Positions 22,207-58,737 of a DNA stretch of 64,000 nt are shown here, piece after piece (positions within the stretch are counted from its first letter, which is position 1; every line of letters starts with the position of its first letter). Made by a program: the position numbers and the translations under genes. The notes beneath the pieces are model-generated. The model did no database searches. It saw only the letters and a program-made list of their open reading frames with translations, and was not told where the DNA came from. The DNA is from Escherichia coli (lineage in GTDB: Bacteria; Pseudomonadota; Gammaproteobacteria; Enterobacterales; Enterobacteriaceae). The stretch lies in the NCBI RefSeq assembly GCF_044647545.1, contig NZ_CP172818.1. One strand, given 5' to 3'.

Positions 22207-22239
22207 AAAAAACCTGCCATCGCTGGCAGGTTTTTTTTT
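22207..22239 (+). terminator. Rho-independent terminator downstream of typA
   Basis: AAAAAACCTGCCATCGCTGGCAGG followed by TTTTTTTTT. Confidence 0.7.
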
Positions 22240-22405
22240 GCCTGTCGTGAGCGCACACCAATGCGAGTATCTCCCTTATAAGTCTGTGGTTACGTCAATA
22301 GAGAGCTTTGTCACAATTATCTGCAAAGTCATACGCCGTTAATTGCTTTCTTTTTTGGCGTAAGCGTAAGATGCTTCATCTGGTTTAAACCAAAAGGATT
22401 AAACA

Positions 22406-23115
22406 ATGGCGGAGAATCAATCCACCGTAGAAAATGCAAAAGAGAAACTGGATCGGTGGTTGAAAGATGGCATCACCACGCCGGGTGGAAAACTCCCTTC
22501 AGAAAGAGAGCTGGGAGAACTGCTGGGCATTAAACGTATGACGCTGCGCCAGGCGTTGTTGAACCTCGAGGCAGAATCCAAAATCTTCCGTAAGGATTGT
22601 AGGGGTGGTTCGTGACCCAGCCGCGATTTAATTACAGTCCGGAGCTGTCAGCGAGCTTTCAGCGGGCCGCAATTGAGCAAGGACGAGAGCCTTCCTGGGG
22701 GTTTACCGAGAAAAACCGTACCAGCGATATTCCCGAGACGCTCGCGCCACTGATCGCAGTGACACCATCAACTGAACTCTATCGCATCACCGGCTGGGGG
22801 GCGCTGGAAGGACATAAAGTTTTCTATCACGAAACATATATTAATCCTGAAGTTGCTCCGGGCTTTATTGAACAACTTGAAAACCACTCATTTTCTGCAG
22901 TCTGGGAAAAGTGCTACCAAAAAGAGACGGTAGTAAAAAAATTGATTTTCAAACCCGTCAGAATGCCGGGCGATATCAGCAAGTATCTTGGCGGTTCTGC
23001 GGGTATGCCAGCGATCTTAATTGAAAAGCATCGCGCCGACCAGCAAGGCAATATTGTCCAAATAGATATTGAATATTGGCGATTTGAGGCCGTAGACCTC
23101 ATCATTAATCTGTAG
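22406..23115 (+). pseudogene. yihL: GntR-family regulator YihL, split by an apparent 1 bp deletion near 22601-22610
   Basis: ORFs 22406..22615 (69 aa, winged HTH) and 22612..23115 (167 aa) lie in different frames; combined length equals the 236 aa expected for intact YihL. Confidence 0.7.
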
Positions 23116-23122
23116 GTGTTTT

Positions 23123-24103
23123 ATGGTGACAATAAATAACGCAAGAAAGATTCTACAACGTGTCGACACTCTTCCTCTTTATTTACATGCTTATGCCTTT
23201 CATTTAAATATGCGGCTGGAAAGAGTGTTGCCTGCTGATTTACTTGATATCGCAAGTGAAAATAATCTACGTGGCGTCAAAATCCATGTTCTCGATGGCG
23301 AGCGTTTTTCTCTTGGTAATATGGACGATAAAGAACTCTCTGCCTTTGGGGATAAAGCCCGCCGTCTGAACCTTGATATTCATATTGAAACCAGCGCCTC
23401 AGATAAGGCATCTATTGACGAAGCCGTCGCCATCGCGTTGAAAACTGGGGCATCGTCCGTACGTTTTTATCCACGTTATGAAGGTAATTTGCGCGACGTA
23501 TTATCGATTATCGCTAACGACATTGCCTATGTACGGGAAACGTATCAGGACAGCGGCCTGACTTTTACGATCGAGCAGCATGAAGATTTAAAAAGTCATG
23601 AGCTGGTGTCGCTGGTCAAAGAAAGTGAGATGGAATCTCTTTCCTTACTGTTTGATTTTGCGAACATGATCAATGCAAATGAGCATCCCATCGACGCTTT
23701 AAAAACGATGGCACCGCATATTACCCAGGTCCATATCAAAGATGCCTTGATCGTTAAAGAACCGGGTGGCCTGGGTCATAAAGCCTGTATTTCAGGTCAG
23801 GGTGATATGCCGTTCAAAGCGTTATTAACGCACCTTATCTGCCTGGGTGATGATGAGCCGCAGGTGACGGCATATGGCCTGGAAGAAGAGGTTGATTACT
23901 ATGCGCCGGCGTTCCGCTTTGAAGACGAAGATGATAATCCGTGGATCCCTTATCGCCAGATGAGTGAAACACCATTGCCAGAAAATCATTTACTGGATGC
24001 GCGGTTACGTAAAGAAAAAGAAGATGCAATTAATCAGATAAATCATGTGCGTAACGTACTACAACAAATCAAACAAGAGGCAAACCATCTTCTGAACCAC
24101 TAA
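23123..24103 (+). CDS. yihM: Sugar phosphate isomerase/epimerase (xylose isomerase-like TIM barrel) YihM
   Basis: 326 aa ORF; synteny yihL-yihM-yihN. Confidence 0.85.
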   Translation: MVTINNARKILQRVDTLPLYLHAYAFHLNMRLERVLPADLLDIASENNLRGVKIHVLDGERFSLGNMDDKELSAFGDKARRLNLDIHIETSASDKASIDEAVAIALKTGASSVRFYPRYEGNLRDVLSIIANDIAYVRETYQDSGLTFTIEQHEDLKSHELVSLVKESEMESLSLLFDFANMINANEHPIDALKTMAPHITQVHIKDALIVKEPGGLGHKACISGQGDMPFKALLTHLICLGDDEPQVTAYGLEEEVDYYAPAFRFEDEDDNPWIPYRQMSETPLPENHLLDARLRKEKEDAINQINHVRNVLQQIKQEANHLLNH

Positions 24104-24204
24104 TAAGTTTTAACTCATACGCAGTTAATAAAACCATTCCATATGAATGGTCGGTATCTTATTGCCTTTAAAACAGTGATTTTAAAAATCGCTTAGGGGA
24201 TGTT

Positions 24205-25470
24205 ATGCTCACGAAAAAGAAATGGGCGTTATTTAGTCTATTAACACTGTGTGGCGGTACAATTTATAAATTACCGTCGCTGAAAGATGCGTTTTATATC
24301 CCGATGCAGGAATATTTCCATTTGACCAATGGTCAAATTGGTAATGCTATGTCGGTAAACTCATTTGTCACCACAGTGGGCTTTTTTCTGTCTATTTATT
24401 TTGCCGATAAACTACCGCGCAGATACACCATGTCATTCTCACTCATTGCGACAGGATTACTGGGTGTTTATTTGACGACAATGCCGGGGTATTGGGGCAT
24501 CCTCTTTGTCTGGGCGCTATTTGGCGTTACTTGCGACATGATGAACTGGCCGGTCTTGCTCAAGTCGGTAAGTCGATTGGGCAATAGCGAACAACAAGGT
24601 CGGTTGTTTGGCTTCTTCGAAACAGGGCGTGGCATTGTCGATACCGTGGTGGCATTTTCTGCGTTGGCAGTATTTACCTGGTTTGGCAGTGGCTTATTAG
24701 GTTTTAAAGCAGGCATCTGGTTCTATTCCCTTATTGTGATTGCCGTAGGCATTATTATTTTCTTTGTCCTGAATGACAAAGAAGAGGCACCGTCCGTTGA
24801 GGTGAAAAAAGAAGACGGAGCATCGAAAAACACCAGTATGACCTCGGTGCTGAAAGACAAAACTATCTGGCTTATCGCTTTTAACGTCTTCTTCGTTTAC
24901 GCGGTTTACTGTGGCCTGACATTCTTCATTCCATTCCTGAAAAACATCTATCTATTGCCCGTTGCGCTGGTGGGGGCTTACGGCATCATTAACCAATACT
25001 GTCTGAAAATGATTGGTGGACCGATTGGTGGCATGATTTCAGATAAGATCCTGAAATCGCCAAGTAAATATCTATGCTACACCTTTATCATTAGTACCGC
25101 TGCGCTCGTACTGTTGATTATGCTGCCGCACGAAAGTATGCCGGTCTATTTAGGGATGGCATGTACGCTGGGCTTTGGCGCGATAGTCTTTACACAGCGA
25201 GCCGTATTTTTTGCACCTATCGGCGAAGCAAAAATTGCTGAAAATAAAACAGGTGCGGCGATGGCGTTGGGTAGCTTTATTGGTTACGCTCCGGCGATGT
25301 TCTGCTTCAGTCTGTATGGCTACATTCTGGATTTAAATCCGGGGATTATTGGCTACAAAATCGTGTTTGGCATTATGGCCTGCTTCGCATTCAGTGGTGC
25401 GGTGGTTTCCGTAATGCTGGTTAAGCGTATTAGCCAACGTAAGAAAGAGATGCTGGCGGCTGAAGCTTAA
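24205..25470 (+). CDS. yihN: MFS transporter YihN
   Basis: 421 aa ORF with ~12 hydrophobic segments. Confidence 0.85.
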   Translation: MLTKKKWALFSLLTLCGGTIYKLPSLKDAFYIPMQEYFHLTNGQIGNAMSVNSFVTTVGFFLSIYFADKLPRRYTMSFSLIATGLLGVYLTTMPGYWGILFVWALFGVTCDMMNWPVLLKSVSRLGNSEQQGRLFGFFETGRGIVDTVVAFSALAVFTWFGSGLLGFKAGIWFYSLIVIAVGIIIFFVLNDKEEAPSVEVKKEDGASKNTSMTSVLKDKTIWLIAFNVFFVYAVYCGLTFFIPFLKNIYLLPVALVGAYGIINQYCLKMIGGPIGGMISDKILKSPSKYLCYTFIISTAALVLLIMLPHESMPVYLGMACTLGFGAIVFTQRAVFFAPIGEAKIAENKTGAAMALGSFIGYAPAMFCFSLYGYILDLNPGIIGYKIVFGIMACFAFSGAVVSVMLVKRISQRKKEMLAAEA

Positions 25471-25475
25471 TTAAT

Positions 25476-25553
<78 letters not shown>

Positions 25554-31236: not shown

Positions 31237-31554
31237 AAATAATCTCCATAGAGTATAAAGCTAATATTTCATGCCATCCTGTTGTTACAGGTTTCATTAA
31301 TTAAAGATTGTGTGCTATAAATAAAACCCCATAAGTGATATATAAAAACTTTTTCAGCCCGGCGGATTGCCGCCATTTTTAACCAAAAATGCCAGTTACA
31401 ATAATAACTAACAATAAACGGAGCAGAATCCAGCCGGGAATTCCCATCCCTTTTATCAACATAGAACCGGAGGCAATCAGCAACAAAAAGACCATCACAC
31501 GGAACACTTTGACTGAAAGCGTTTATGCACATATCTCCAACAAGCGAACCGAGA

Positions 31555-31945
31555 ATCAGGAAAACAAAAAACACCAGTTAAAAAAAGAAACATCAAAATC
31601 CCCCCCCCCCGCCCCCCCCGCCCCCCTTTTTGGGGAAAAAAAGGGTCCGAGGCCCCGAATCCCCCGGGCCCAATTCCAGCATACCTACACCCCCGCCCCG
31701 CCCCCCGCCCCGCTCGCCGCTACTCGCCGATACGCCGCGACCATAACGTCAAAACGACAGACAAGAAATAAACATAAAAAAAAAAAAAAAGAAAAGGATC
31801 CCCCTACCCATTAAAAACGTACATACAAACACACAAACAAACAACAAAAAAAAAAATAACGCCCCCCCAACACAAAAAAAAAAACCCCAACAAAAAGAAA
31901 AAAAAAAAAAAAAAAAAAAAAAACACCCCCCAAAAAAAAAAAAAA
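31555..31945. other. Anomalous low-complexity tract (A+C only; homopolymer runs of C and A up to ~26 nt)
   Basis: Directly visible: CCCCCCCCCCCGCCCCCCCCGCCCCCC, AAAAAAAAAAAAAAAAAAAAAAAAAA and similar; G nearly absent for ~250 bp; no plausible coding frame. Confidence 0.9.
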
Positions 31946-32008
31946 CATAATATTTCCTGTTGTGTAAATACAACCCTAAACAATGATCTCGTTCTTTTCT
32001 TAATAAAA

Positions 32009-32920
32009 TTAATTGTGCTGCCCGTGAATATTAAAAAACAGGCGGTGCGTTTTTCCTGGTTCCAGTAATAATAAGTCGATACCTGAATTAAAGGCGTTAG
32101 GCGGGCAACTCATAGGTTCAACTGCCAGTCCCTGACGCTGTAATTTTTCTCCGCTATAAACCTGCACCCAGGGTTGATCGGAACAGAGGCTCACCGAAAG
32201 CGCCTGTTGTGGATGGGTAATGGTTATTTCCCACAGATCATTAGCGGTTTTAAAGGTATGGTCTATTTTTGTCGCGGCTATTTTTGTCGCCCGCGTGAAA
32301 TTTAAATTCAGCTCATCAACGTGGTGAAGCGTTGTCGGATTTGCGTGCTCATCGACGGCATAAACCTGTTCTGCCGGAAGCTGGAAAAGATAGTCATCAA
32401 CAGATGTTAAGTTGCAGGTTAAATAAGGATGAATACCCACACCATAAGGTGCGGTCACAGTACCAATATTCTGGCTTGCGATCTCAACGGAAAGGCCCGT
32501 GCGAGCGTTGAGCGAATAAACAACCTGCGAAGCCAGCATAAACGGATAGCCGTAACTGGGCGGCAGAAAAGCTGTCAGGGTAACGCTGGTGGCGGTTAAT
32601 TCGCTAATTTGCCAGTCACGCCAGGCAAGCAGCCCGTGAATAGCGGCTTTTGAACCATGTTCATTAATGGGTAACTGATATTCCTGCCCCTGATAGCGAT
32701 AACAGCCGTTGGCGATCCGGTTCGGCCACGGAATAAGCACTTTACCCAGATGCGCCAGCGGCATCTCTTCGGGTTTGTGCGGGATGACTAAATGACAACC
32801 CTGAAAGGTTAATTCAGCCAGACCAGCACCAACCGTCACGATAGTCGCGTGATAATCCCCCGCGGCAAGTGAAACGGTTTGTCCACTGCAATGCATGTTG
32901 GTGATTTGCATACGAGGCAC
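32009..32920 (-). CDS. yihR: Aldose 1-epimerase family protein (sulfoquinovose mutarotase) YihR
   Basis: 303 aa ORF; synteny between yihQ and yihS. Confidence 0.85.
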   Translation of the reverse strand: MPRMQITNMHCSGQTVSLAAGDYHATIVTVGAGLAELTFQGCHLVIPHKPEEMPLAHLGKVLIPWPNRIANGCYRYQGQEYQLPINEHGSKAAIHGLLAWRDWQISELTATSVTLTAFLPPSYGYPFMLASQVVYSLNARTGLSVEIASQNIGTVTAPYGVGIHPYLTCNLTSVDDYLFQLPAEQVYAVDEHANPTTLHHVDELNLNFTRATKIAATKIDHTFKTANDLWEITITHPQQALSVSLCSDQPWVQVYSGEKLQRQGLAVEPMSCPPNAFNSGIDLLLLEPGKTHRLFFNIHGQHN

Positions 32921-39915: not shown

Positions 39916-40901
39916 GCCAGCTTCCAGGGTTGTCACGGGAAACAAGAGAGAGTATCGCTATGTATCACCTTCGGGTTCCACAAACAGAAGAAGAATTAGA
40001 GCGTTACTATCAGTTTCGCTGGGAAATGTTGCGTAAGCCCCTGCATCAACCGAAAGGTTCGGAACGCGACGCGTGGGATGCGATGGCGCATCACCAGATG
40101 GTCGTCGACGAGCAGGGTAATCTGGTGGCGGTAGGCCGACTGTATATTAATGCCGACAATGAAGCGTCCATTCGCTTTATGGCCGTTCATCCCGACGTGC
40201 AGGACAAAGGGTTAGGAACGCTGATGGCGATGACCCTCGAATCTGTGGCGCGTCAGGAAGGTGTTAAGCGCGTGACCTGTAGCGCCCGCGAAGACGCGGT
40301 GGAGTTTTTCGCCAAGCTGGGGTTTGTTAATCAGGGAGAAATCACCACGCCAACCACCACGCCGATTCGCCATTTTTTGATGATTAAACCCGTTGCCACT
40401 CTGGATGATATTTTGCATCGCGGCGACTGGTGCGCGCAGCTGCAACAGGCGTGGTATGAACACATCCCGCTGAGTGAAAAAATGGGCGTGCGCATTCAGC
40501 AATATACCGGGCAAAAATTTATCACCACCATGCCGGAAACAGGCAATCAGAATCCGCATCACACGCTGTTTGCCGGGAGTTTATTCTCGCTGGCAACGCT
40601 CACCGGTTGGGGGCTTATCTGGCTGATGCTGCGCGAACGCCACCTCGGCGGAACGATTATTCTGGCGGATGCGCATATCCGCTATAGCAAGCCGATTAGC
40701 GGCAAACCTCATGCGGTAGCCGACCTTGGTGCCTTAAGCGGCGATCTCGACCGTCTGGCGCGTGGACGAAAAGCACGGGTGCAGATGCAAGTAGAAATCT
40801 TTGGCGACGAGACGCCGGGTGCAGTGTTTGAAGGCACGTATATCGTTCTGCCCGCGAAGCCATTTGGCCCGTATGAAGAGGGCGGGAACGAAGAAGAGTA
40901 G
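39912..40901 (+). CDS. yiiD: GNAT acetyltransferase / thioesterase fusion protein YiiD (FabY)
   Basis: 329 aa ORF with GNAT region ([15 protein letters not shown]) followed by hotdog-like C-terminal domain. Confidence 0.85.
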
Positions 40902-40904
40902 CGT

Positions 40905-41729
40905 TGGCAGGTGCATTGCACTCCTTGCCCCTGTCATGCGGTGATACAACGCTTCACCTTCATCGCAAAGTGGGTCGTATTCAGCGGTAATGATATGTAC
41001 AGGTGGCAAGCCATTGAAATCATCGCGCCAAAGAGGGCTGGCTTCAGGATGCCTGCGTTCAATGCCTGGCAGGTACATCTCAAAGCCGCTCAGTAAAGTG
41101 TCGCGTGTGATGATGTAATCGTGACGATTGCGTATGTAGCTTTCGAAATGCGCAGTCGCATCAAGCATGGGATAAATTAAGATGACCGAGTTGTGCCGGT
41201 TGCCACTCGCCAGCACGCTTTAATCGCAAAGCAGTTACCAGCGCCAGATGTCCGCCCGCACTGTCACCGGCAAGAGTTATCCGTTGTTTATCAACGCCGA
41301 GTCGTTCGGCGTGTTGCCGACTGAATTCTGCACCTCGTTGCGCATCATCATGGGCGGCGGGGAAAGTATGTCCGGTGCCAGCCGATACTGGACGGCAATA
41401 ACCCGACATTGCCCGTAATAGGCTAACTGGCGCAGCTGGTTGTCGTGAGTTGCGAACCCGCCGCTAACAAAACAGCCACCGTAGTAATAAATTATCGTCG
41501 GGAGTAATGTCGGGGCATTCAGCGGTGACACTATTCGTAAGGTCATCGCTTCAAGTTCGATAGTCTGAATATCTACCCGCGTTTCTGTCTCACCCGCAAG
41601 GACAGCGCTGGCGATATAGCCCTCCCTGCGCTGCGCAATACTTTGTTGACGCGATGAGGGGCGACCCGCAGCGATAAACTCTTCGACTAACTCTGCAATT
41701 CCTTTTTCAGTGCCATAGTAGAACTCATT
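40905..41729 (-). pseudogene. Decayed alpha/beta-hydrolase (hormone-sensitive-lipase family esterase, Aes-like) gene remnant
   Basis: Minus-strand fragments in three or more frames: ..IIYYYGGCFVSGGFATHD.. (oxyanion-hole region), ..ITLAGDSAGGHLALVTALRLK.. (GDSAG nucleophile elbow), ..HIITAEYDPLCDEGEALYHRMTGA.. (acid-residue region); no single frame covers the gene and the 3' end runs into yiiD. Confidence 0.6.
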
Positions 41730-41945
41730 TTGCTGTATGAATGTACAGTTTTATACACCCGTTTTTACTGGATGGATACAGGGAAATTCACGGGCGTGAA
41801 AAATCTGGAAAGCGCCTCGCAAATGTAAAGACAAACCCGGCAGAGATGTGGTTTTGCTGGAGCACTATCAGTAAGCTAGTGGTTTCAAGGGTACGTCAAT
41901 GACGTACAGAAGGGGTTTATTTATCTAAGCCAATGGCGTATAATT

Positions 41946-42256
41946 ATGCTCTTCATCGAAACGGAAATTTTTACTGAAGATGTTCAAAAACTGCTGACCG
42001 ACGATGAATTCAGTCGTTTTCAGTTTTTCCTGGCCTTGAATCCTGACTATGGTGAGGTAATACCTGAAACTGGTGGGTTAAGAAAGGTTCGATGGGTGTC
42101 AGGAGGAAGGGGAAACGTGCTGGTGTCAGGGTTATTTACTTTCATCAGGTTAAACATTATGAGATCAGATTACTGCTTATTTATCGTAAGGGTATTAAAG
42201 ATAATATCTCTCCCCAGGAAAAAGCAATGCTCCGGTTGTTAAATACGAGGTGGTAA
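41946..42256 (+). pseudogene. RelE/ParE-superfamily (HigB-like) toxin with an internal frameshift
   Basis: Frame 1 gives MLFIETEIFTEDVQKLLTDDEFSRFQFFLALNPDYGEVIPETGGLRKVRWVSGGRG..; the +1 frame continues ..GKRAGVRVIYF..EIRLLLIYRKGIKDNISPQEKAMLRLLNTRW and stops at TAA directly abutting the antitoxin ATG. Confidence 0.6.
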
Positions 42257-42547
42257 ATGGATAAGGCACTTTTTGAGCGGTTGACTCACAGCATGGCCCA
42301 GATGAATGAAATTATTGAAGGAACGCGACAGCCTTCGCGGACTTTTGAAGTTGATGCTATGAAAATCAAAGAAATACGCCGCGCTTCAGGGTTGTCACAA
42401 TCTAAATTTGCCGATCTTATTTCTGTAAGCGTAGACACGTTGCGTAACTGGGAGCAGGGGCGACGTTCGCCGACCGGGCCTGCAAAGGCTTTGCTGCGAG
42501 CGATTGCCAATGATCCGCAACATGTGCTGCAAGCACTTAACCGTTAG
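42257..42547 (+). CDS. HTH (XRE-family) HigA-like antitoxin
   Basis: 96 aa ORF with HTH region IRRASGLSQSKFADLISVSVDTLRNWEQGRRSP; translationally coupled (TAAATG) to the upstream toxin frame. Confidence 0.7.
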   Translation: MDKALFERLTHSMAQMNEIIEGTRQPSRTFEVDAMKIKEIRRASGLSQSKFADLISVSVDTLRNWEQGRRSPTGPAKALLRAIANDPQHVLQALNR

Positions 42548-43150
42548 AGGCATGGTTATGCCATACAGAAAGCACCAGCATTCAGAACTCCTGTGAAAGC
42601 GGCGTAGTGCCACCTGCTCAGGAGTTTTGCTATGACCCGTAATCAGTGCTGACCGTTGCCACCCTATGATGCGATTAAAAAAACTCATCGTCGCGCCGAT
42701 GATTGACGTCAATGCTATCGGATGATACCGGGGGTGTTCCAGAAAGATCCAACTTTCCCGAACTGTTACCAACAAAATTATAACGATGAGCAAGTTAAGA
42801 CCGGTTGGTAGCAGTACTGACCGGTCTGTGATGGATGATTAATTTCACCTTAAATCCGGGTGCTGTTAGGATGCTGACATTTTTCGGCTACACCATTCAG
42901 ATTATGCAAATAAAGATCCAATCAAAAAATAAACATCCCTGTATATAATATATTTATAGCACCCATATCTCATCCTGGGCGATAACCCAACCATTTTTGA
43001 TTAACAAATGAAACAACTGCAACGTTCTTATTATTTCTGGAAAACGTCTCGCAAAAACAAAACAGCATGCAAAAATCCGCTTTTTTTAAATGATTTTTCG
43101 GCGTAATTTTCGCACATACATTAATGAGTAATATATGTAAGGTATTGGTA

Positions 43151-43369: not shown

Positions 43370-43578
43370 CAAAAAATTTATTATTCTTGAATATAAAAAC
43401 CAGATGCCCTTATTCTGGTATTAATACAAGGCTGTTTTACTTGAACTTATAATAACTGCAACTGTTACATCATATCTGGAAAACGCCTCGCGAAATACGA
43501 GAGTTTGGAATAGCAGGTGTCGTCATACCCTATGAACTGTAATCCGGGCGACCAGCGCCACCCGGAAAACGTCAGAGA

Positions 43579-56103: not shown

Positions 56104-56539
56104 TATTGGATTCCATGAAAAAATATAATAGTTAATTGTAACGGCGGGGCGGTTTTGTGATGAGCGCGGATATGTCGTGAAGTCGTGACAATATAAGGCA
56201 GAGTGAAGGATAAATTTTGCGGTGTAAGGCACATATTGATGGGTAAAATAAAGCAGTGAATAAAAAATCATTATTTAATGATGTTGTGAATGTTTAACTG
56301 CCGCACATGTTTTGCAGCAAGGTTATTTATATTTGTGGCTTATGAGTCAGCGTGAATTATATCTAATATTTTTAACGATATTTGGTTAAAAACGGCACTA
56401 TTGTTTATTCCTCAGTTCCAGAAATCAGCGGATTTACTCATATTATACGATACTATCCATCGCCTCTAAGTTGATTAAAAATTCGAAATCACACCTTATA
56501 TTTCTCTATAACTATTCCTTTTGAAACATCTCTTTTTTT

Positions 56540-57125
56540 GGGGAAGAAAAAAAAAAAAAACATTTGTTTGGGGAGGAGAGGGAAAAAAAAAAATTAAGGG
56601 AACAACGAGATTGTGGAAGAAGCCGGAGAGAAAAAAGCGGCAAAAAAAGAGAGAGAGGGGGAAAAAAAGCAGACAAAAAAAGGGAGACGGAAAAAGAGCG
56701 CGAGAAGGGGAAAAAGAGGAGAAGCGGGGAGCGAGAAAAAAAAACCCACCTCTCTTCTTCTCTGGGAAAAAAAAGCGGGAAAATAAAGGGAAAAGAAGGG
56801 GGGAGAAGAGTGGAGAAGACCACAAAAGAGAGGAGTGTTGTTGGAAAGAGAAGAAGTCGCGGGGTCCCCCGCAGGGGGGAGGGGGAGAAAAAGGGGTGTT
56901 TTCGCAAGAAAAAGAAGAAGGAAAGAAGGGGGGAGTGCCGGAGGAAGTGTGAGTAGAAAAACGAATGAGGGGGGAGCTATATGAAAGAAGGGGCGGGGGC
57001 AGGGGGTCATTCGGAAAAAAAAAAGAATGTTGAAAAAAAAGAAAGAAAAGGAAAAATTAAAGAAGAAAAGAGGAGGGGAGGGAGAAAGAAAATTCGGGAT
57101 GCGGGGCAGGAGGGTGCGCGGTGCT
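56540..57125. other. Anomalous ~590 bp polypurine (A+G) low-complexity tract
   Basis: Directly visible: GGGGAAGAAAAAAAAAAAAAA..GGGGAGGAGAGGGAAAAAAAAAAA..; plus strand almost devoid of pyrimidine runs; overlapping ORFs in several frames encode only low-complexity K/E/R/G or P/S/F/L peptides. Confidence 0.9.
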
Positions 57126-57152
57126 GGATATTTTCCGGCACTTCGCAACTCA

Positions 57153-58319: not shown

Positions 58320-58737
58320 TTGGACGTCCGTGCCTGTTGCCGGATGTACGATCTGTAGGCCGGATAAGGCACTCGTGCCGCATCCGGCAATCAATGCCTG
58401 ATGCGACGCTGTCGCGTCTTATCAGCCTACAACTATTGCCGACCCTAGCCGGATATGGCGCTCGTGCCGCATCCGGCAATCAATGCCTGATGCGACGCTG
58501 TCGCGTCTTATCAGGCCTACAACTATTGCCGACCTGTAGGCCGGATAAGGCACTTGTGCCGCATCCGGCAACAATGCTGATGCGACGCGTCGCGTCTTAT
58601 CAGGCCTACAACTATTGCCGACCCGTAGCCGATATGCGCTCGTGCCGCATCCCAATCAATGCCGATGCGACGCTGCGCGCTATCAGGCCACAACAGCCGA
58701 CCCGAGGCCGGAAAGGCACGGCCGCATCCGGCAGTGT
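58320..58737. repeat. Tandem REP/BIME array (~4.5 units of ~85 bp) in the rhaD-rhaA intergenic region
   Basis: Repeated GCCGGATAAGGC.CTCGTGCCGCATCCGGCAATCAATGCCTGATGCGACGCTGTCGCGTCTTATCAGGCCTACAACTATTGCCGACC; distal copies progressively lose bases. Confidence 0.8.

What the first reader, a model, noticed from the sequence alone, without database searches (positions are those of the whole stretch)
41946..42547. HigB/HigA-like toxin-antitoxin pair with a frameshifted toxin
Two adjacent same-strand small genes have the toxin-first order typical of HigBA modules. The upstream one has a RelE/ParE-type toxin N-terminus, but its conserved C-terminal half (..GVRVIYF..LLLIYRKGIKDNISPQEKAMLRLLNTRW) is in the +1 frame; the shift lies in a purine-rich stretch around 42100-42115. 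That C-terminal frame ends in TAA immediately followed by the ATG of an intact 96 aa XRE-HTH antitoxin. To my knowledge the module is not part of the K-12 yiiD-yiiE region, so it looks like strain-specific accessory DNA. Either the toxin is inactivated, leaving an orphan antitoxin/regulator, or the shift is a homopolymer sequencing error.
Basis: partly seen in the sequence, partly recalled or inferred. Interest (0 to 1): 0.5.

Follow-up and report, generated by a model that had tools for sequence, protein, structure and literature searches.

The report
Known HigB-2/HigA-2 module, doubtful frameshift
This is an ordinary, already-annotated E. coli HigB-2/HigA-2 toxin-antitoxin pair, and the one-base deletion that breaks the toxin is unique to this sequence and lies in a stretch of visibly corrupted DNA, so it is more likely a sequence artefact than a real pseudogene.

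Summary
The toxin at 41946-42256 is split between two frames. An intact 96-aa HTH gene (42257-42547) starts directly after its TAA.

The repaired toxin is a HigB-2-type RelE toxin: E about 1e-18 and 40% identity to the Vibrio cholerae HigB-2 structures, with all four catalytic residues kept. The antitoxin is identical to WP_000356397.1 (NadS / HigA-2). A GTACG-N7-CGTAC palindrome at 41891-41907 has the same core half-sites and spacing as the mapped V. cholerae HigA2 operator.

The module sits between fabY and yiiE in about 2635 of 5426 complete E. coli genomes. K-12 lacks it.

The break is a 1-bp deletion (AAA to AA, 42107-42108). None of 2636 complete genomes and none of 3 metagenome contigs share it, and neither ORF product is in a 15-billion-protein collection. 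About 88% of sampled natural copies are intact; natural pseudogenes carry other lesions.

The window differs from an ST648-type strain at only 6 positions over about 56.6 kb of backbone. The segments absent from K-12 carry dense private indels, and two of them decay into non-biological low-complexity junk. The islet holding this module has 31 private difference columns.

Verdict: a known module. The frameshift is probably an artefact (about 75%), and a real private pseudogene is the main rival (about 20%). Low interest.

The parts
41891..41907 (.). Operator-like inverted repeat GTACGTCA-a-TGACGTAC, starting 55 nt and ending 39 nt upstream of the toxin ATG. Presumed binding site of the HigA-2-type antitoxin.
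   Evidence: Perfect 8+8 inverted repeat. GTACG-N7-CGTAC occurs once in the 64-kb window against 0.03 expected. It is conserved in every natural copy fetched. It has the same core half-sites and spacing as the footprinted V. cholerae HigA2 operator TGTACGC-N5-GCGTACA (PMC11006873). Binding here is inferred, not tested.
41946..42256 (+). higB-2-type toxin gene, disrupted in this sequence. Frame 1 runs 41946-42242 (98 aa, native for 54 residues only). The native C-terminal half is read in the frame one base back, 42092-42256.
   Evidence: ORFs and translations. The intact 103-aa natural allele is WP_000897305.1. The repaired protein hits the HigB-2 structures 9TV9/5JA9/5JA8 at E 1e-18 to 6e-18, 40% identity over 97 aa. 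Pfam RelE PF06296 gives E 6e-4.
42107..42108 (+). Site of the 1-bp deletion (AAA to AA) that shifts the frame at codon 55, in the Gly/Lys-rich beta2-beta3 loop.
   Evidence: Alignment with three natural alleles. Not shared by any of 2636 complete E. coli genomes or 3 metagenome contigs. It removes the equivalents of catalytic R64, Y82 and K84 of VcHigB2 from the frame-1 product.
42257..42547 (+). higA-2 / nadS antitoxin gene, intact, 96 aa: an N-terminal segment plus a C-terminal Xre-type HTH domain.
   Evidence: Protein identical to WP_000356397.1, which is on at least 1000 contigs and is named NadS family / Antitoxin HigA-2. NCBIfam NadS NF041265 scores 60.7 bits against a cutoff of 60. Pfam HTH_3 gives 3e-9. 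HigA-2 structures 9TV9/5JAA give E 1.8e-8 to 1.8e-7 over residues 31-89. The only difference from the nearest relative is one synonymous base at 42469.
40902..41716 (-). Neighbouring alpha/beta-hydrolase gene of the same accessory islet, heavily disrupted in this sequence. It is context, not part of the TA module.
   Evidence: The natural gene is 303 codons. The window copy lacks about 153 bp of the reference that span the gene's 3' end, and carries six further small indels and one substitution. Its ORF fragments are absent from the protein collection.

Best explanation
The locus is a genuine type II toxin-antitoxin operon of the HigB-2/HigA-2 (RelE-like) kind. It forms a small accessory islet, together with an alpha/beta-hydrolase gene, between fabY(yiiD) and yiiE in about half of E. 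coli.

**How it works, inferred from the V. cholerae homologue.**
- The 103-aa toxin enters the ribosomal A site and cleaves translating mRNA.
- The 96-aa antitoxin neutralises it through its N-terminal segment.
- As a dimer, the antitoxin's C-terminal HTH domain binds the GTACG-N7-CGTAC palindrome upstream of the toxin gene and represses the operon.

**The frameshift.** In this window the toxin frame is broken by loss of one A at 42107-42108. The written frame-1 product would keep only one of the four catalytic residues. This deletion is most likely not biological. It is one of many private indels confined to the accessory (non-K-12) segments of a window whose backbone is almost identical to its closest relatives, and two of those segments decay into non-biological low-complexity sequence.

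The deletion is therefore best read as a sequence-quality artefact of unknown origin (assembly, consensus calling or synthetic corruption). The true locus is probably the common intact allele.
For: **TA identity.**
- HigB-2 structures hit at E 1e-18, 40% identity over 97 aa, ungapped.
- R49/R62/Y80/K82 align with the mutationally validated R51/R64/Y82/K84 of VcHigB2.
- The antitoxin matches HigA-2 structures, HTH_3 and NadS.
- The toxin TAA abuts the antitoxin ATG.
- The operator-like palindrome is unique in the window against 0.03 expected, is conserved in all natural copies, and has the core and spacing of the footprinted Vc operator.
- UniRef and some RefSeq records already name the pair HigB-2/HigA-2.

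**Distribution.**
- 2635 of 5426 complete genomes carry it.
- K-12 lacks it.
- 53 of 60 evenly sampled copies appear intact: 52 annotated 'hypothetical protein' and 1 'toxin HigB-2', all 312 bases long.

**Artefact.**
- The deletion is in 0 of 2636 genomes and 0 of 3 metagenome contigs.
- The 98-aa product, the 54-aa product and the repaired 'DNIS' protein are absent from about 15 billion proteins, while the intact allele is on at least 1000 contigs.
- Against strain FDAARGOS_497, the backbone has 6 differences in about 56.6 kb. The islet 40897-42753 has 31 difference columns: 16 substituted bases and 15 inserted or deleted bases.
- Those changes include a 4-bp insertion that duplicates no adjacent sequence and several multi-base clusters.
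- The ST648-type alleles are still the closest match to the islet, at 98.3-98.4%. It is therefore not an import of another sampled allele.
- The corrupted stretches coincide with the segments missing from K-12: 31255-32017, 40903-42749, 43496-43515 and 56236-57151.
- Two of them run into junk such as c11-g-c8 and a26.
Against: - No reads are available, so the deletion cannot be shown to be an error.
- The lesion is in a short purine run where real slippage happens. A natural pseudogene allele (AVS0285, and probably SE15) carries a +1 G in the adjacent G run.
- About 10% of natural copies look inactivated with the antitoxin kept, so a dead toxin with an orphan antitoxin is biologically plausible at this locus.
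- The islet's error profile differs from the junk patches. It runs at about 1.7% with roughly balanced insertions and deletions and no gradient. The junk patches are strongly deletion-biased and worsen progressively.
- The antitoxin gene carries only one synonymous change. With one indel per roughly 200 bp, escaping by chance has a probability of about 0.2, so this is uninformative.
- I could not identify the process that produced the corruption.
- Toxin activity, neutralisation and operator binding are all inferred from homology.
Confidence: 0.75

Rival explanations
1. The frameshift is real. The source strain carries a privately pseudogenised higB-2, leaving HigA-2/NadS as an orphan antitoxin or autoregulator, as part of real decay of the whole hydrolase-higBA islet.
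For: - About 10% of natural copies carry inactivating lesions with an intact antitoxin: a +1 G in the same purine tract and a Q26 stop.
- The deletion is in a short homopolymer.
- The neighbouring hydrolase is also disrupted.
- The antitoxin is untouched apart from one synonymous change.
Against: - The allele is unique among 2636 genomes and about 15 billion proteins.
- 31 private difference columns in 1.86 kb sit inside a backbone with 6 differences in about 56.6 kb.
- About half of those columns are inserted or deleted bases, and some insertions duplicate no adjacent sequence. That does not look like natural divergence.
- The boundaries of the altered stretch fall within a few bases of the K-12 indel junctions. 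Those junctions have no meaning for a mutational process in this genome.
- Other accessory segments of the same window are plainly non-biological.
Confidence: 0.2
2. The shift is real and is bypassed. The deletion places a canonical -1 slippery heptamer, G_GGA_AAC (42110-42116), in the zero frame. A -1 slip there restores the native C-terminal frame, so a small amount of full-length toxin (GGRGN-RAG instead of GGKGK-RAG) would be made.
For: Direct reading of the sequence. The frame-1 codons are AGG GGA AAC, and after a -1 slip the next codon is CGT, which is in the native frame. An AGGAGG motif lies just upstream at 42101-42106.
Against: - No downstream stimulatory structure (z = 0.22, 118 of 200 shuffles fold at least as well).
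- The SD-like motif ends only 3 nt from the heptamer. From my own knowledge of dnaX and prfB, that is the spacing that favours +1 frameshifting rather than -1.
- X_XXA_AAC is a poor slippery site in E. coli (own knowledge).
- The allele is unique, and all natural copies encode a single ORF.
- The reading requires the deletion to be real in the first place.
Confidence: 0.02
3. The pair is not a toxin-antitoxin system. The downstream gene is a stand-alone Xre/NadS-type regulator, and the upstream ORF is an unrelated small gene or a chance ORF.
For: - NCBIfam has no model that hits the toxin (0 families).
- PGAP calls the intact copy 'hypothetical protein'.
- The Pfam RelE hit is weak (E 6e-4).
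- The N-terminal 30 residues of the antitoxin show no detectable similarity to VcHigA2.
- No experimental study of the E. coli pair was found.
Against: - E 1e-18 to solved HigB-2 toxins over nearly the full length, with 4 of 4 catalytic residues kept.
- The adjacent antitoxin matches HigA-2.
- The operator core is the same as in V. cholerae.
- The gene order and stop-start abutment are the same.
Confidence: 0.02

Closest known systems
Vibrio cholerae HigB-2/HigA-2 (VCA0468/VCA0469; PDB 5JA8, 5JA9, 5JAA, 8A0W/8A0X, 9TV9)
   Same: - Toxin-first bicistronic operon.
- Toxin of about 103-110 aa, 40% identical over 97 aa without gaps, with the RelE-like catalytic set R/R/Y/K conserved.
- Antitoxin of about 100 aa with a C-terminal HTH domain, 37% identical over 59 aa.
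- A single inverted-repeat operator with GTACG...CGTAC half-sites separated by 7 nt.
   Different: - The location is chromosomal, between fabY and yiiE in E. coli, not the V. cholerae superintegron.
- The antitoxin's N-terminal neutralising segment has no detectable sequence similarity.
- Two of the four base-contacting residues differ: Vc R68 and E71 correspond to D60 and R63 here, while N72 and R77 are kept as N64 and R69.
- The inner and outer operator bases differ.
- In this window the toxin frame is broken.
E. coli accessory HigB-2/HigA-2 pair WP_000897305.1 / WP_000356397.1 (PGAP: 'hypothetical protein' + 'NadS family protein'; UniRef: Toxin HigB-2 / Antitoxin HigA-2)
   Same: - It is the same locus, with the same flanks (fabY, alpha/beta hydrolase, yiiE, fdhE).
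- The antitoxin protein is identical.
- The toxin DNA is about 98.7% identical.
   Different: - The window copy has a private 1-bp deletion.
- It has a private 3-base cluster that changes DDLS to DNIS.
- It has a private 7-change cluster just downstream of the operator.
Proteus vulgaris Rts1 HigB/HigA and E. coli K-12 HigB/HigA (ygjN/ygjM)
   Same: Toxin-before-antitoxin order, a RelE-superfamily ribosome-dependent mRNase toxin and an HTH antitoxin (PMC5416850).
   Different: This is a different subfamily. According to PMC5416850, VcHigB2-type toxins are closer to E. coli RelE in fold and active site, and they are neutralised by an N-terminal disordered segment of the antitoxin. No Rts1-type HigB or HigA structure appeared among the sequence hits.
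MqsR/MqsA
   Same: Toxin-first order. The C-terminal HTH of the antitoxin gives weak hits to MqsA models: TIGR03830 at 39.1 bits and Pfam MqsA_antitoxin at E 2.6e-4.
   Different: The TIGR03830 score is below the curated cutoff of 61.8 bits. Only the HTH part of the model matches, and the N-terminal CxxC zinc-binding domain is absent. The toxin is HigB-2-like, not MqsR-like.

Membership tests
HigB-2-type RelE toxin (RelE/ParE superfamily) | Significant full-length sequence similarity to characterised HigB-2 | tested here: met
   phmmer against PDB gives 9TV9_C at 1.1e-18 and 5JA9_C at 6.2e-18, residues 2-98, ungapped, 40% identity. Pfam RelE PF06296 gives E 6e-4. The test used the frame-repaired protein.
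HigB-2-type RelE toxin (RelE/ParE superfamily) | Catalytic residues equivalent to VcHigB2 R51, R64, Y82 and K84 | tested here: met
   R49, R62, Y80 and K82 are present in the repaired and natural protein. In the ORF as written in the window, only R49 stays in frame.
HigB-2-type RelE toxin (RelE/ParE superfamily) | Uninterrupted reading frame encoding the whole domain | tested here: not met
   A 1-bp deletion at 42107-42108 shifts the frame at codon 55. The natural alleles encode an uninterrupted 103-aa protein.
HigB-2-type RelE toxin (RelE/ParE superfamily) | Ribosome-dependent mRNA cleavage and growth arrest on expression | not testable with these tools
   This needs expression and in-vitro translation assays. 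No published test of the E. coli protein was found.
HigBA-type operon architecture | Toxin gene upstream of the antitoxin on the same strand, translationally coupled or abutting | tested here: met
   The toxin TAA at 42254-42256 is followed directly by the antitoxin ATG at 42257.
HigA-2-type antitoxin | C-terminal Xre-type HTH dimerisation and DNA-binding domain homologous to HigA-2 | tested here: met
   9TV9_A at 1.8e-8 and 5JAA_A at 1.8e-7 over residues 31-89. Pfam HTH_3 at 3.1e-9.
HigA-2-type antitoxin | N-terminal disordered segment that folds onto the toxin and neutralises it | tested here: inconclusive
   A roughly 30-residue N-terminal extension precedes the HTH domain, but it has no detectable sequence similarity to VcHigA2 residues 3-33. 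The complex was not modelled.
HigA-2-type antitoxin | Single inverted-repeat operator upstream of the toxin gene | tested here: met
   GTACGTCA-a-TGACGTAC at 41891-41907. It occurs once in the window against 0.03 expected and is conserved in 8 natural loci. It has the same GTACG-N7-CGTAC core as the footprinted Vc operator. Actual binding was not tested.
NadS family (NCBIfam NF041265, equivalog) | Whole-protein score at or above the curated cutoff | tested here: met
   60.7 bits against a cutoff of 60, residues 5-89 on model positions 3-87 of 94. RefSeq names the identical protein NadS family.
MqsA family antitoxin (TIGR03830) | Score above the cutoff and an N-terminal CxxCG zinc-binding domain | tested here: not met
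   39.1 bits against a cutoff of 61.8. Only model positions 64-123 (the HTH part) are matched.
Programmed -1 ribosomal frameshift site | In-frame X_XXY_YYZ heptamer, a stimulatory element, and conservation of the two-frame arrangement | tested here: not met
   The heptamer G_GGA_AAC is present and in frame. No downstream structure was found (z = 0.22). The two-frame arrangement is found in 0 of 2636 genomes.

The most novel reading that the evidence does not exclude
The private lesions are real rather than technical. The source lineage would then carry a process that riddles accessory, non-core DNA with indels while leaving about 56 kb of adjacent core sequence nearly unchanged. The affected segments are the hydrolase-higBA islet, the TauE/SafE exporter gene, a porin gene and a REP cluster. 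The higB-2 frameshift would be one footprint of that process. A G_GGA_AAC heptamer created by the deletion could then allow leaky -1 read-through to a full-length toxin.
Probability: 0.03. Interest if true: 0.75.

Novelty: already known. Interest (0 to 1): 0.1.

Why it matters
It matters little as biology. The module is a common, already-annotated E. coli accessory HigB-2/HigA-2 pair. Toxin-inactivated copies with a retained antitoxin are already visible in public genomes.

Three by-products are useful:
- **A data-quality warning.** Frameshifts and pseudogene calls in the accessory segments of this window should not be trusted without reads.
- **An annotation gap.** PGAP labels the intact toxin 'hypothetical protein', and no NCBIfam model hits it, although it is 40% identical to a structurally characterised toxin.
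- **A testable prediction.** The E. coli antitoxin should recognise the same GTACG-N7-CGTAC operator core as V. cholerae HigA2, even though two of the four base-contacting residues differ.

Tried and rejected
- **Import from a divergent allele or lineage (rejected).** The closest alleles of both the TA region and the hydrolase region are still the ST648-type strains that match the flanks, at 98.3-98.4%. The changes are therefore private derivatives of that allele.
- **Fall-back to K-12 reference sequence in the yihLMN segment (rejected).** That segment is 97.4% identical to K-12, not 100%. It is 99.8% identical to other natural strains.
- **Finding the source lineage through the truncated YihL ORF (led nowhere).** The 167-aa product is in the protein collection. 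All 8 contigs that carry it are only 97-99% identical to the window, and none has the window's yihL lesion. The ORF is simply called whenever the 5' part of yihL is damaged.
- **Programmed frameshifting (rejected).** A formal slippery heptamer exists, but there is no stimulatory structure and the two-frame arrangement is not conserved.
- **Origin of the name 'NadS' and any experimental work on the E. coli pair (little found).** The literature searches gave only one mention that a nadS gene is expressed in K-12 BW25113 (PMC12350097). That is a different locus, because K-12 lacks this islet. One other paper carries a Prokka-style listing of HigB-2/HigA-2 as strain-variable genes (PMC10304320).
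- **Promoter (unresolved).**
  - The window allele has no sigma-70-like match.
  - The natural allele has TTGTTA-16-TATAAT, but its -10 ends 1 nt before the ATG, so it cannot serve the annotated start.
  - A weak TTTCAA-16-TACAAA pair that would place the operator over the spacer and -10, as in V. cholerae, is only my reading of the sequence.
- **Rfam (nothing).** No RNA family hits the islet.

Full report
**1. The observation**

Reading the region and listing its ORFs confirms the description.
- An ATG at 41946 opens a 98-aa ORF ending at 42242.
- A second frame, one base back, carries the conserved C-terminal half (MGVRRKGKRAGVRVIYFHQVKHYEIRLLLIYRKGIKDNISPQEKAMLRLLNTRW) from 42092 to the TAA at 42254-42256.
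- The ATG of an intact 96-aa ORF (42257-42547) follows that TAA directly.

**2. Where the frame breaks**

The same 701-bp stretch is present at 95-99% identity in 2635 of 5426 complete E. coli genomes. It always lies between fabY(yiiD), an alpha/beta-hydrolase gene, and yiiE-fdhE.

Most genomes carry an uninterrupted 103-aa upstream gene, WP_000897305.1, which PGAP labels 'hypothetical protein'. It is followed by WP_000356397.1, 'NadS family protein'.

Alignment shows that the window has lost one A from an AAA run. GGAGGAAAGGGG has become GGAGGAAGGGG, and the remaining AA is at 42107-42108.

Other strains carry different lesions:
- a +1 G in the adjacent G run (AVS0285);
- a CAG-to-TAG stop at codon 26 (MY504).

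**3. What the genes are**

The frame-repaired toxin hits the solved V. cholerae HigB-2 structures at E 1e-18 to 6e-18 over residues 2-98, without gaps and at 40% identity. Pfam gives a weak RelE (PF06296) hit. NCBIfam gives no hit.

The four residues whose alanine substitution cripples VcHigB2 are R51, R64, Y82 and K84 (PMC5416850). They align with R49, R62, Y80 and K82 here.

The frameshift falls at codon 55, in the Gly/Lys-rich loop that corresponds to the disordered beta2-beta3 loop of VcHigB2. The written frame-1 product therefore keeps only R49 and would be catalytically dead.

The antitoxin evidence:
- It is identical to WP_000356397.1.
- It passes the NadS equivalog cutoff, 60.7 bits against 60.
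- It has an HTH_3 domain.
- It matches the HigA-2 structures over residues 31-89 at E 1.8e-8.
- Its first ~30 residues show no detectable similarity to the VcHigA2 neutralising segment.

UniRef already names the two proteins Toxin HigB-2 and Antitoxin HigA-2.

**4. Regulation**

A perfect 8+8 inverted repeat, GTACGTCA-a-TGACGTAC, lies at 41891-41907. It ends 39 nt upstream of the toxin ATG.

The footprinted and crystallised VcHigA2 operator is TGTACGC-N5-GCGTACA (PMC11006873). Written in register, both sites share GTACG-N7-CGTAC(A).

That pattern occurs once in the 64-kb window against 0.03 expected. It is present at the same place in all eight natural copies fetched.

Of the four base-contacting residues of VcHigA2, N72 and R77 are conserved (N64 and R69 here). 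R68 and E71 are replaced by D60 and R63.

Binding is inferred, and the promoter is not settled:
- The window allele gives no sigma-70 match.
- The only match in the natural allele ends one base before the ATG.

**5. Accessory status**

In K-12 the fabY-yiiE interval holds a different ~470-bp AT-rich segment in place of window 40903-42749. No trace of either TA gene is there.

'Strain-specific' overstates it, because roughly half of complete E. coli genomes carry the module. These include Nissle 1917 and SE15.

**6. Is the frameshift real?**

*It is unique.*
- A 71-bp probe across the site finds 2636 genomes, none at 100%.
- A pattern that accepts either allele finds three metagenome contigs, all with the extra base.
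- The 98-aa product, the 54-aa product and the repaired 'DNIS' protein are absent from a collection of about 15 billion proteins. The intact allele is on at least 1000 contigs there.

*Its surroundings are anomalous.* The comparison is with the closest complete genome, FDAARGOS_497 (ST648-type).
- The window has 6 differences in about 56.6 kb of backbone.
- The islet 40897-42753 has 31 difference columns: 16 substituted bases and 15 inserted or deleted bases.
- The islet also lacks about 153 bp of the reference at its left edge, spanning the 3' end of the hydrolase gene.
- Its changes include a 4-bp insertion that duplicates no adjacent sequence and multi-base clusters: 41909-41923, 42203-42208 and 42741-42753.
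- The same ST648-type alleles remain the best matches to the islet. It is therefore a private derivative of that allele, not an import of another sampled allele.

*The same window holds other altered stretches.*
- 31308-31945 replaces a TauE/SafE exporter gene.
- 56252-57143 replaces a carbohydrate porin gene.
- 58424-58720 is a REP cluster.

In these three, errors accumulate from left to right. In the first two the sequence collapses into non-biological low-complexity runs, for example ccccccccccc-g-cccccccc, a 26-base run of A, and purine-only runs such as gggaaaaagaggagaagcgggg. Perfect identity then returns abruptly.

*The boundaries track K-12.* The altered stretches coincide with the segments absent from K-12: 31255-32017, 40903-42749, 43496-43515 and 56236-57151. 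I know of no natural mutational process that would respect those boundaries.

I could not establish which technical or synthetic process made them. The simplest reading is that the higB-2 deletion belongs to the same corruption.

**7. Why this is not certain**

- No reads are available.
- The lesion is a one-base loss in a short purine run, where real slippage occurs. A natural pseudogene allele has its indel in the adjacent G run.
- In an evenly spaced sample of 60 carrier genomes, 53 look intact and 7 carry a pseudogene-style annotation. Most of the 7 are 313-314 bases long instead of 312. Toxin loss with antitoxin retention does therefore happen at this locus.
- The islet's error profile is milder and less deletion-biased than that of the junk patches.

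I put the artefact reading at about 0.75 and a real private pseudogene at about 0.2.

**8. Minor alternatives**

The deletion places a canonical -1 slippery heptamer, G_GGA_AAC (42110-42116), in the zero frame. A slip there would restore the native frame. Against this:
- there is no downstream structure (z = 0.22);
- the upstream AGGAGG is too close (own knowledge of dnaX and prfB spacing);
- the two-frame arrangement is unique.

The idea that the pair is not a TA system at all is contradicted by the full-length HigB-2 homology, the catalytic residues, the HigA-2 match and the shared operator core.

**9. Comparison with what is known, and verdict**

The locus is a member of the HigB-2/HigA-2 (RelE-like) branch of type II TA systems, and is the same locus that public databases already annotate. 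It works like V. cholerae HigBA2 as far as sequence can show.

- Met: homology, catalytic residues, gene order, the HTH domain and the operator.
- Not met in this window: the intact reading frame.
- Untested: toxin activity, neutralisation and DNA binding.

Nothing here is new in kind. The main value of the follow-up is the warning that the accessory segments of this window are unreliable.

Noticed in passing
window 31308-31945 (junk core 31551-31945): The closest relatives carry a TauE/SafE sulfite-exporter gene here. The window shows a copy that accumulates indels from left to right and collapses into runs such as c11-g-c8, a15 and a26. Perfect identity returns at about 31946. This is not natural-looking DNA. 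The segment is absent from K-12.
   Followed up: partly
window 56252-57143 (junk core 56501-57110): A carbohydrate porin gene of the closest relatives (about 1.4 kb) is replaced by about 0.6 kb of purine-rich low-complexity sequence (gggaaaaagaggagaagcgggg...). Progressive small deletions precede it, and an abrupt return to identity follows. The segment is absent from K-12.
   Followed up: partly
window 58424-58720: A tandem REP/naRNA4 cluster lies between rhaD and rhaA (three Rfam naRNA4 hits). It carries about 24 private single-base deletions relative to the closest relative, which increase towards the right-hand end.
   Followed up: partly
window 40902-41716, minus strand: The alpha/beta-hydrolase gene next to the TA module is 303 codons in relatives. 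In the window it is broken by a missing 153-bp stretch that spans its 3' end, six small indels (including a GACC insertion that duplicates no adjacent sequence) and one substitution. Its ORF fragments are absent from the 15-billion-protein collection.
   Followed up: yes
window 22598-22600 (yihL): yihL is truncated to a 167-aa C-terminal ORF by a private change, GGATCGTAAGGGG to GGATTGTAGGGG. The lost A again stands before a GGGG run, the same context as the higB-2 deletion, and it sits next to a destroyed GATC site. None of the 8 public contigs that carry the same 167-aa ORF has this lesion.
   Followed up: partly
window 22236-25551: The window carries yihL-yihM-yihN, as K-12 does. The ST648-type strains that match the rest of the backbone carry the STM4011-STM4015 radical-SAM cluster at this position. 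No complete genome combines this backbone with yihLMN; the best overall match is 97.6%.
   Followed up: partly
window 41909-41923; L002 3017-3044: Natural alleles have a good sigma-70-like match, TTGTTA-16-TATAAT, whose -10 ends one base before the toxin ATG. That is too close to serve the annotated start. In the window a private 7-change cluster destroys the -35-like hexamer. The real promoter and transcription start site are unknown.
   Followed up: partly
window 42110-42116: The 1-bp deletion puts a canonical -1 slippery heptamer, G_GGA_AAC, in the zero frame, with AGGAGG 3 nt upstream. A slip there would restore the toxin frame. No stimulatory structure was found downstream.
   Followed up: yes
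L002 3046-3357 and RefSeq annotation generally: There is an annotation gap. PGAP names the intact toxin 'hypothetical protein', and no NCBIfam model hits it. Frameshifted copies are named 'type II toxin-antitoxin system RelE/ParE family toxin'. The literature I could search contains no description of a 'NadS' family.
   Followed up: partly
window 18561: This is the only indel in the otherwise near-identical backbone: an AAA-to-AA deletion downstream of glnA, at the edge of a short stretch that does not align with the closest relative.
   Followed up: no
window 43496-43515: K-12 carries yiiF (about 600 bp) between yiiE and fdhE. The window and its relatives lack it. A private 5-base loss (43503-43506) sits exactly at this junction.
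   Followed up: no
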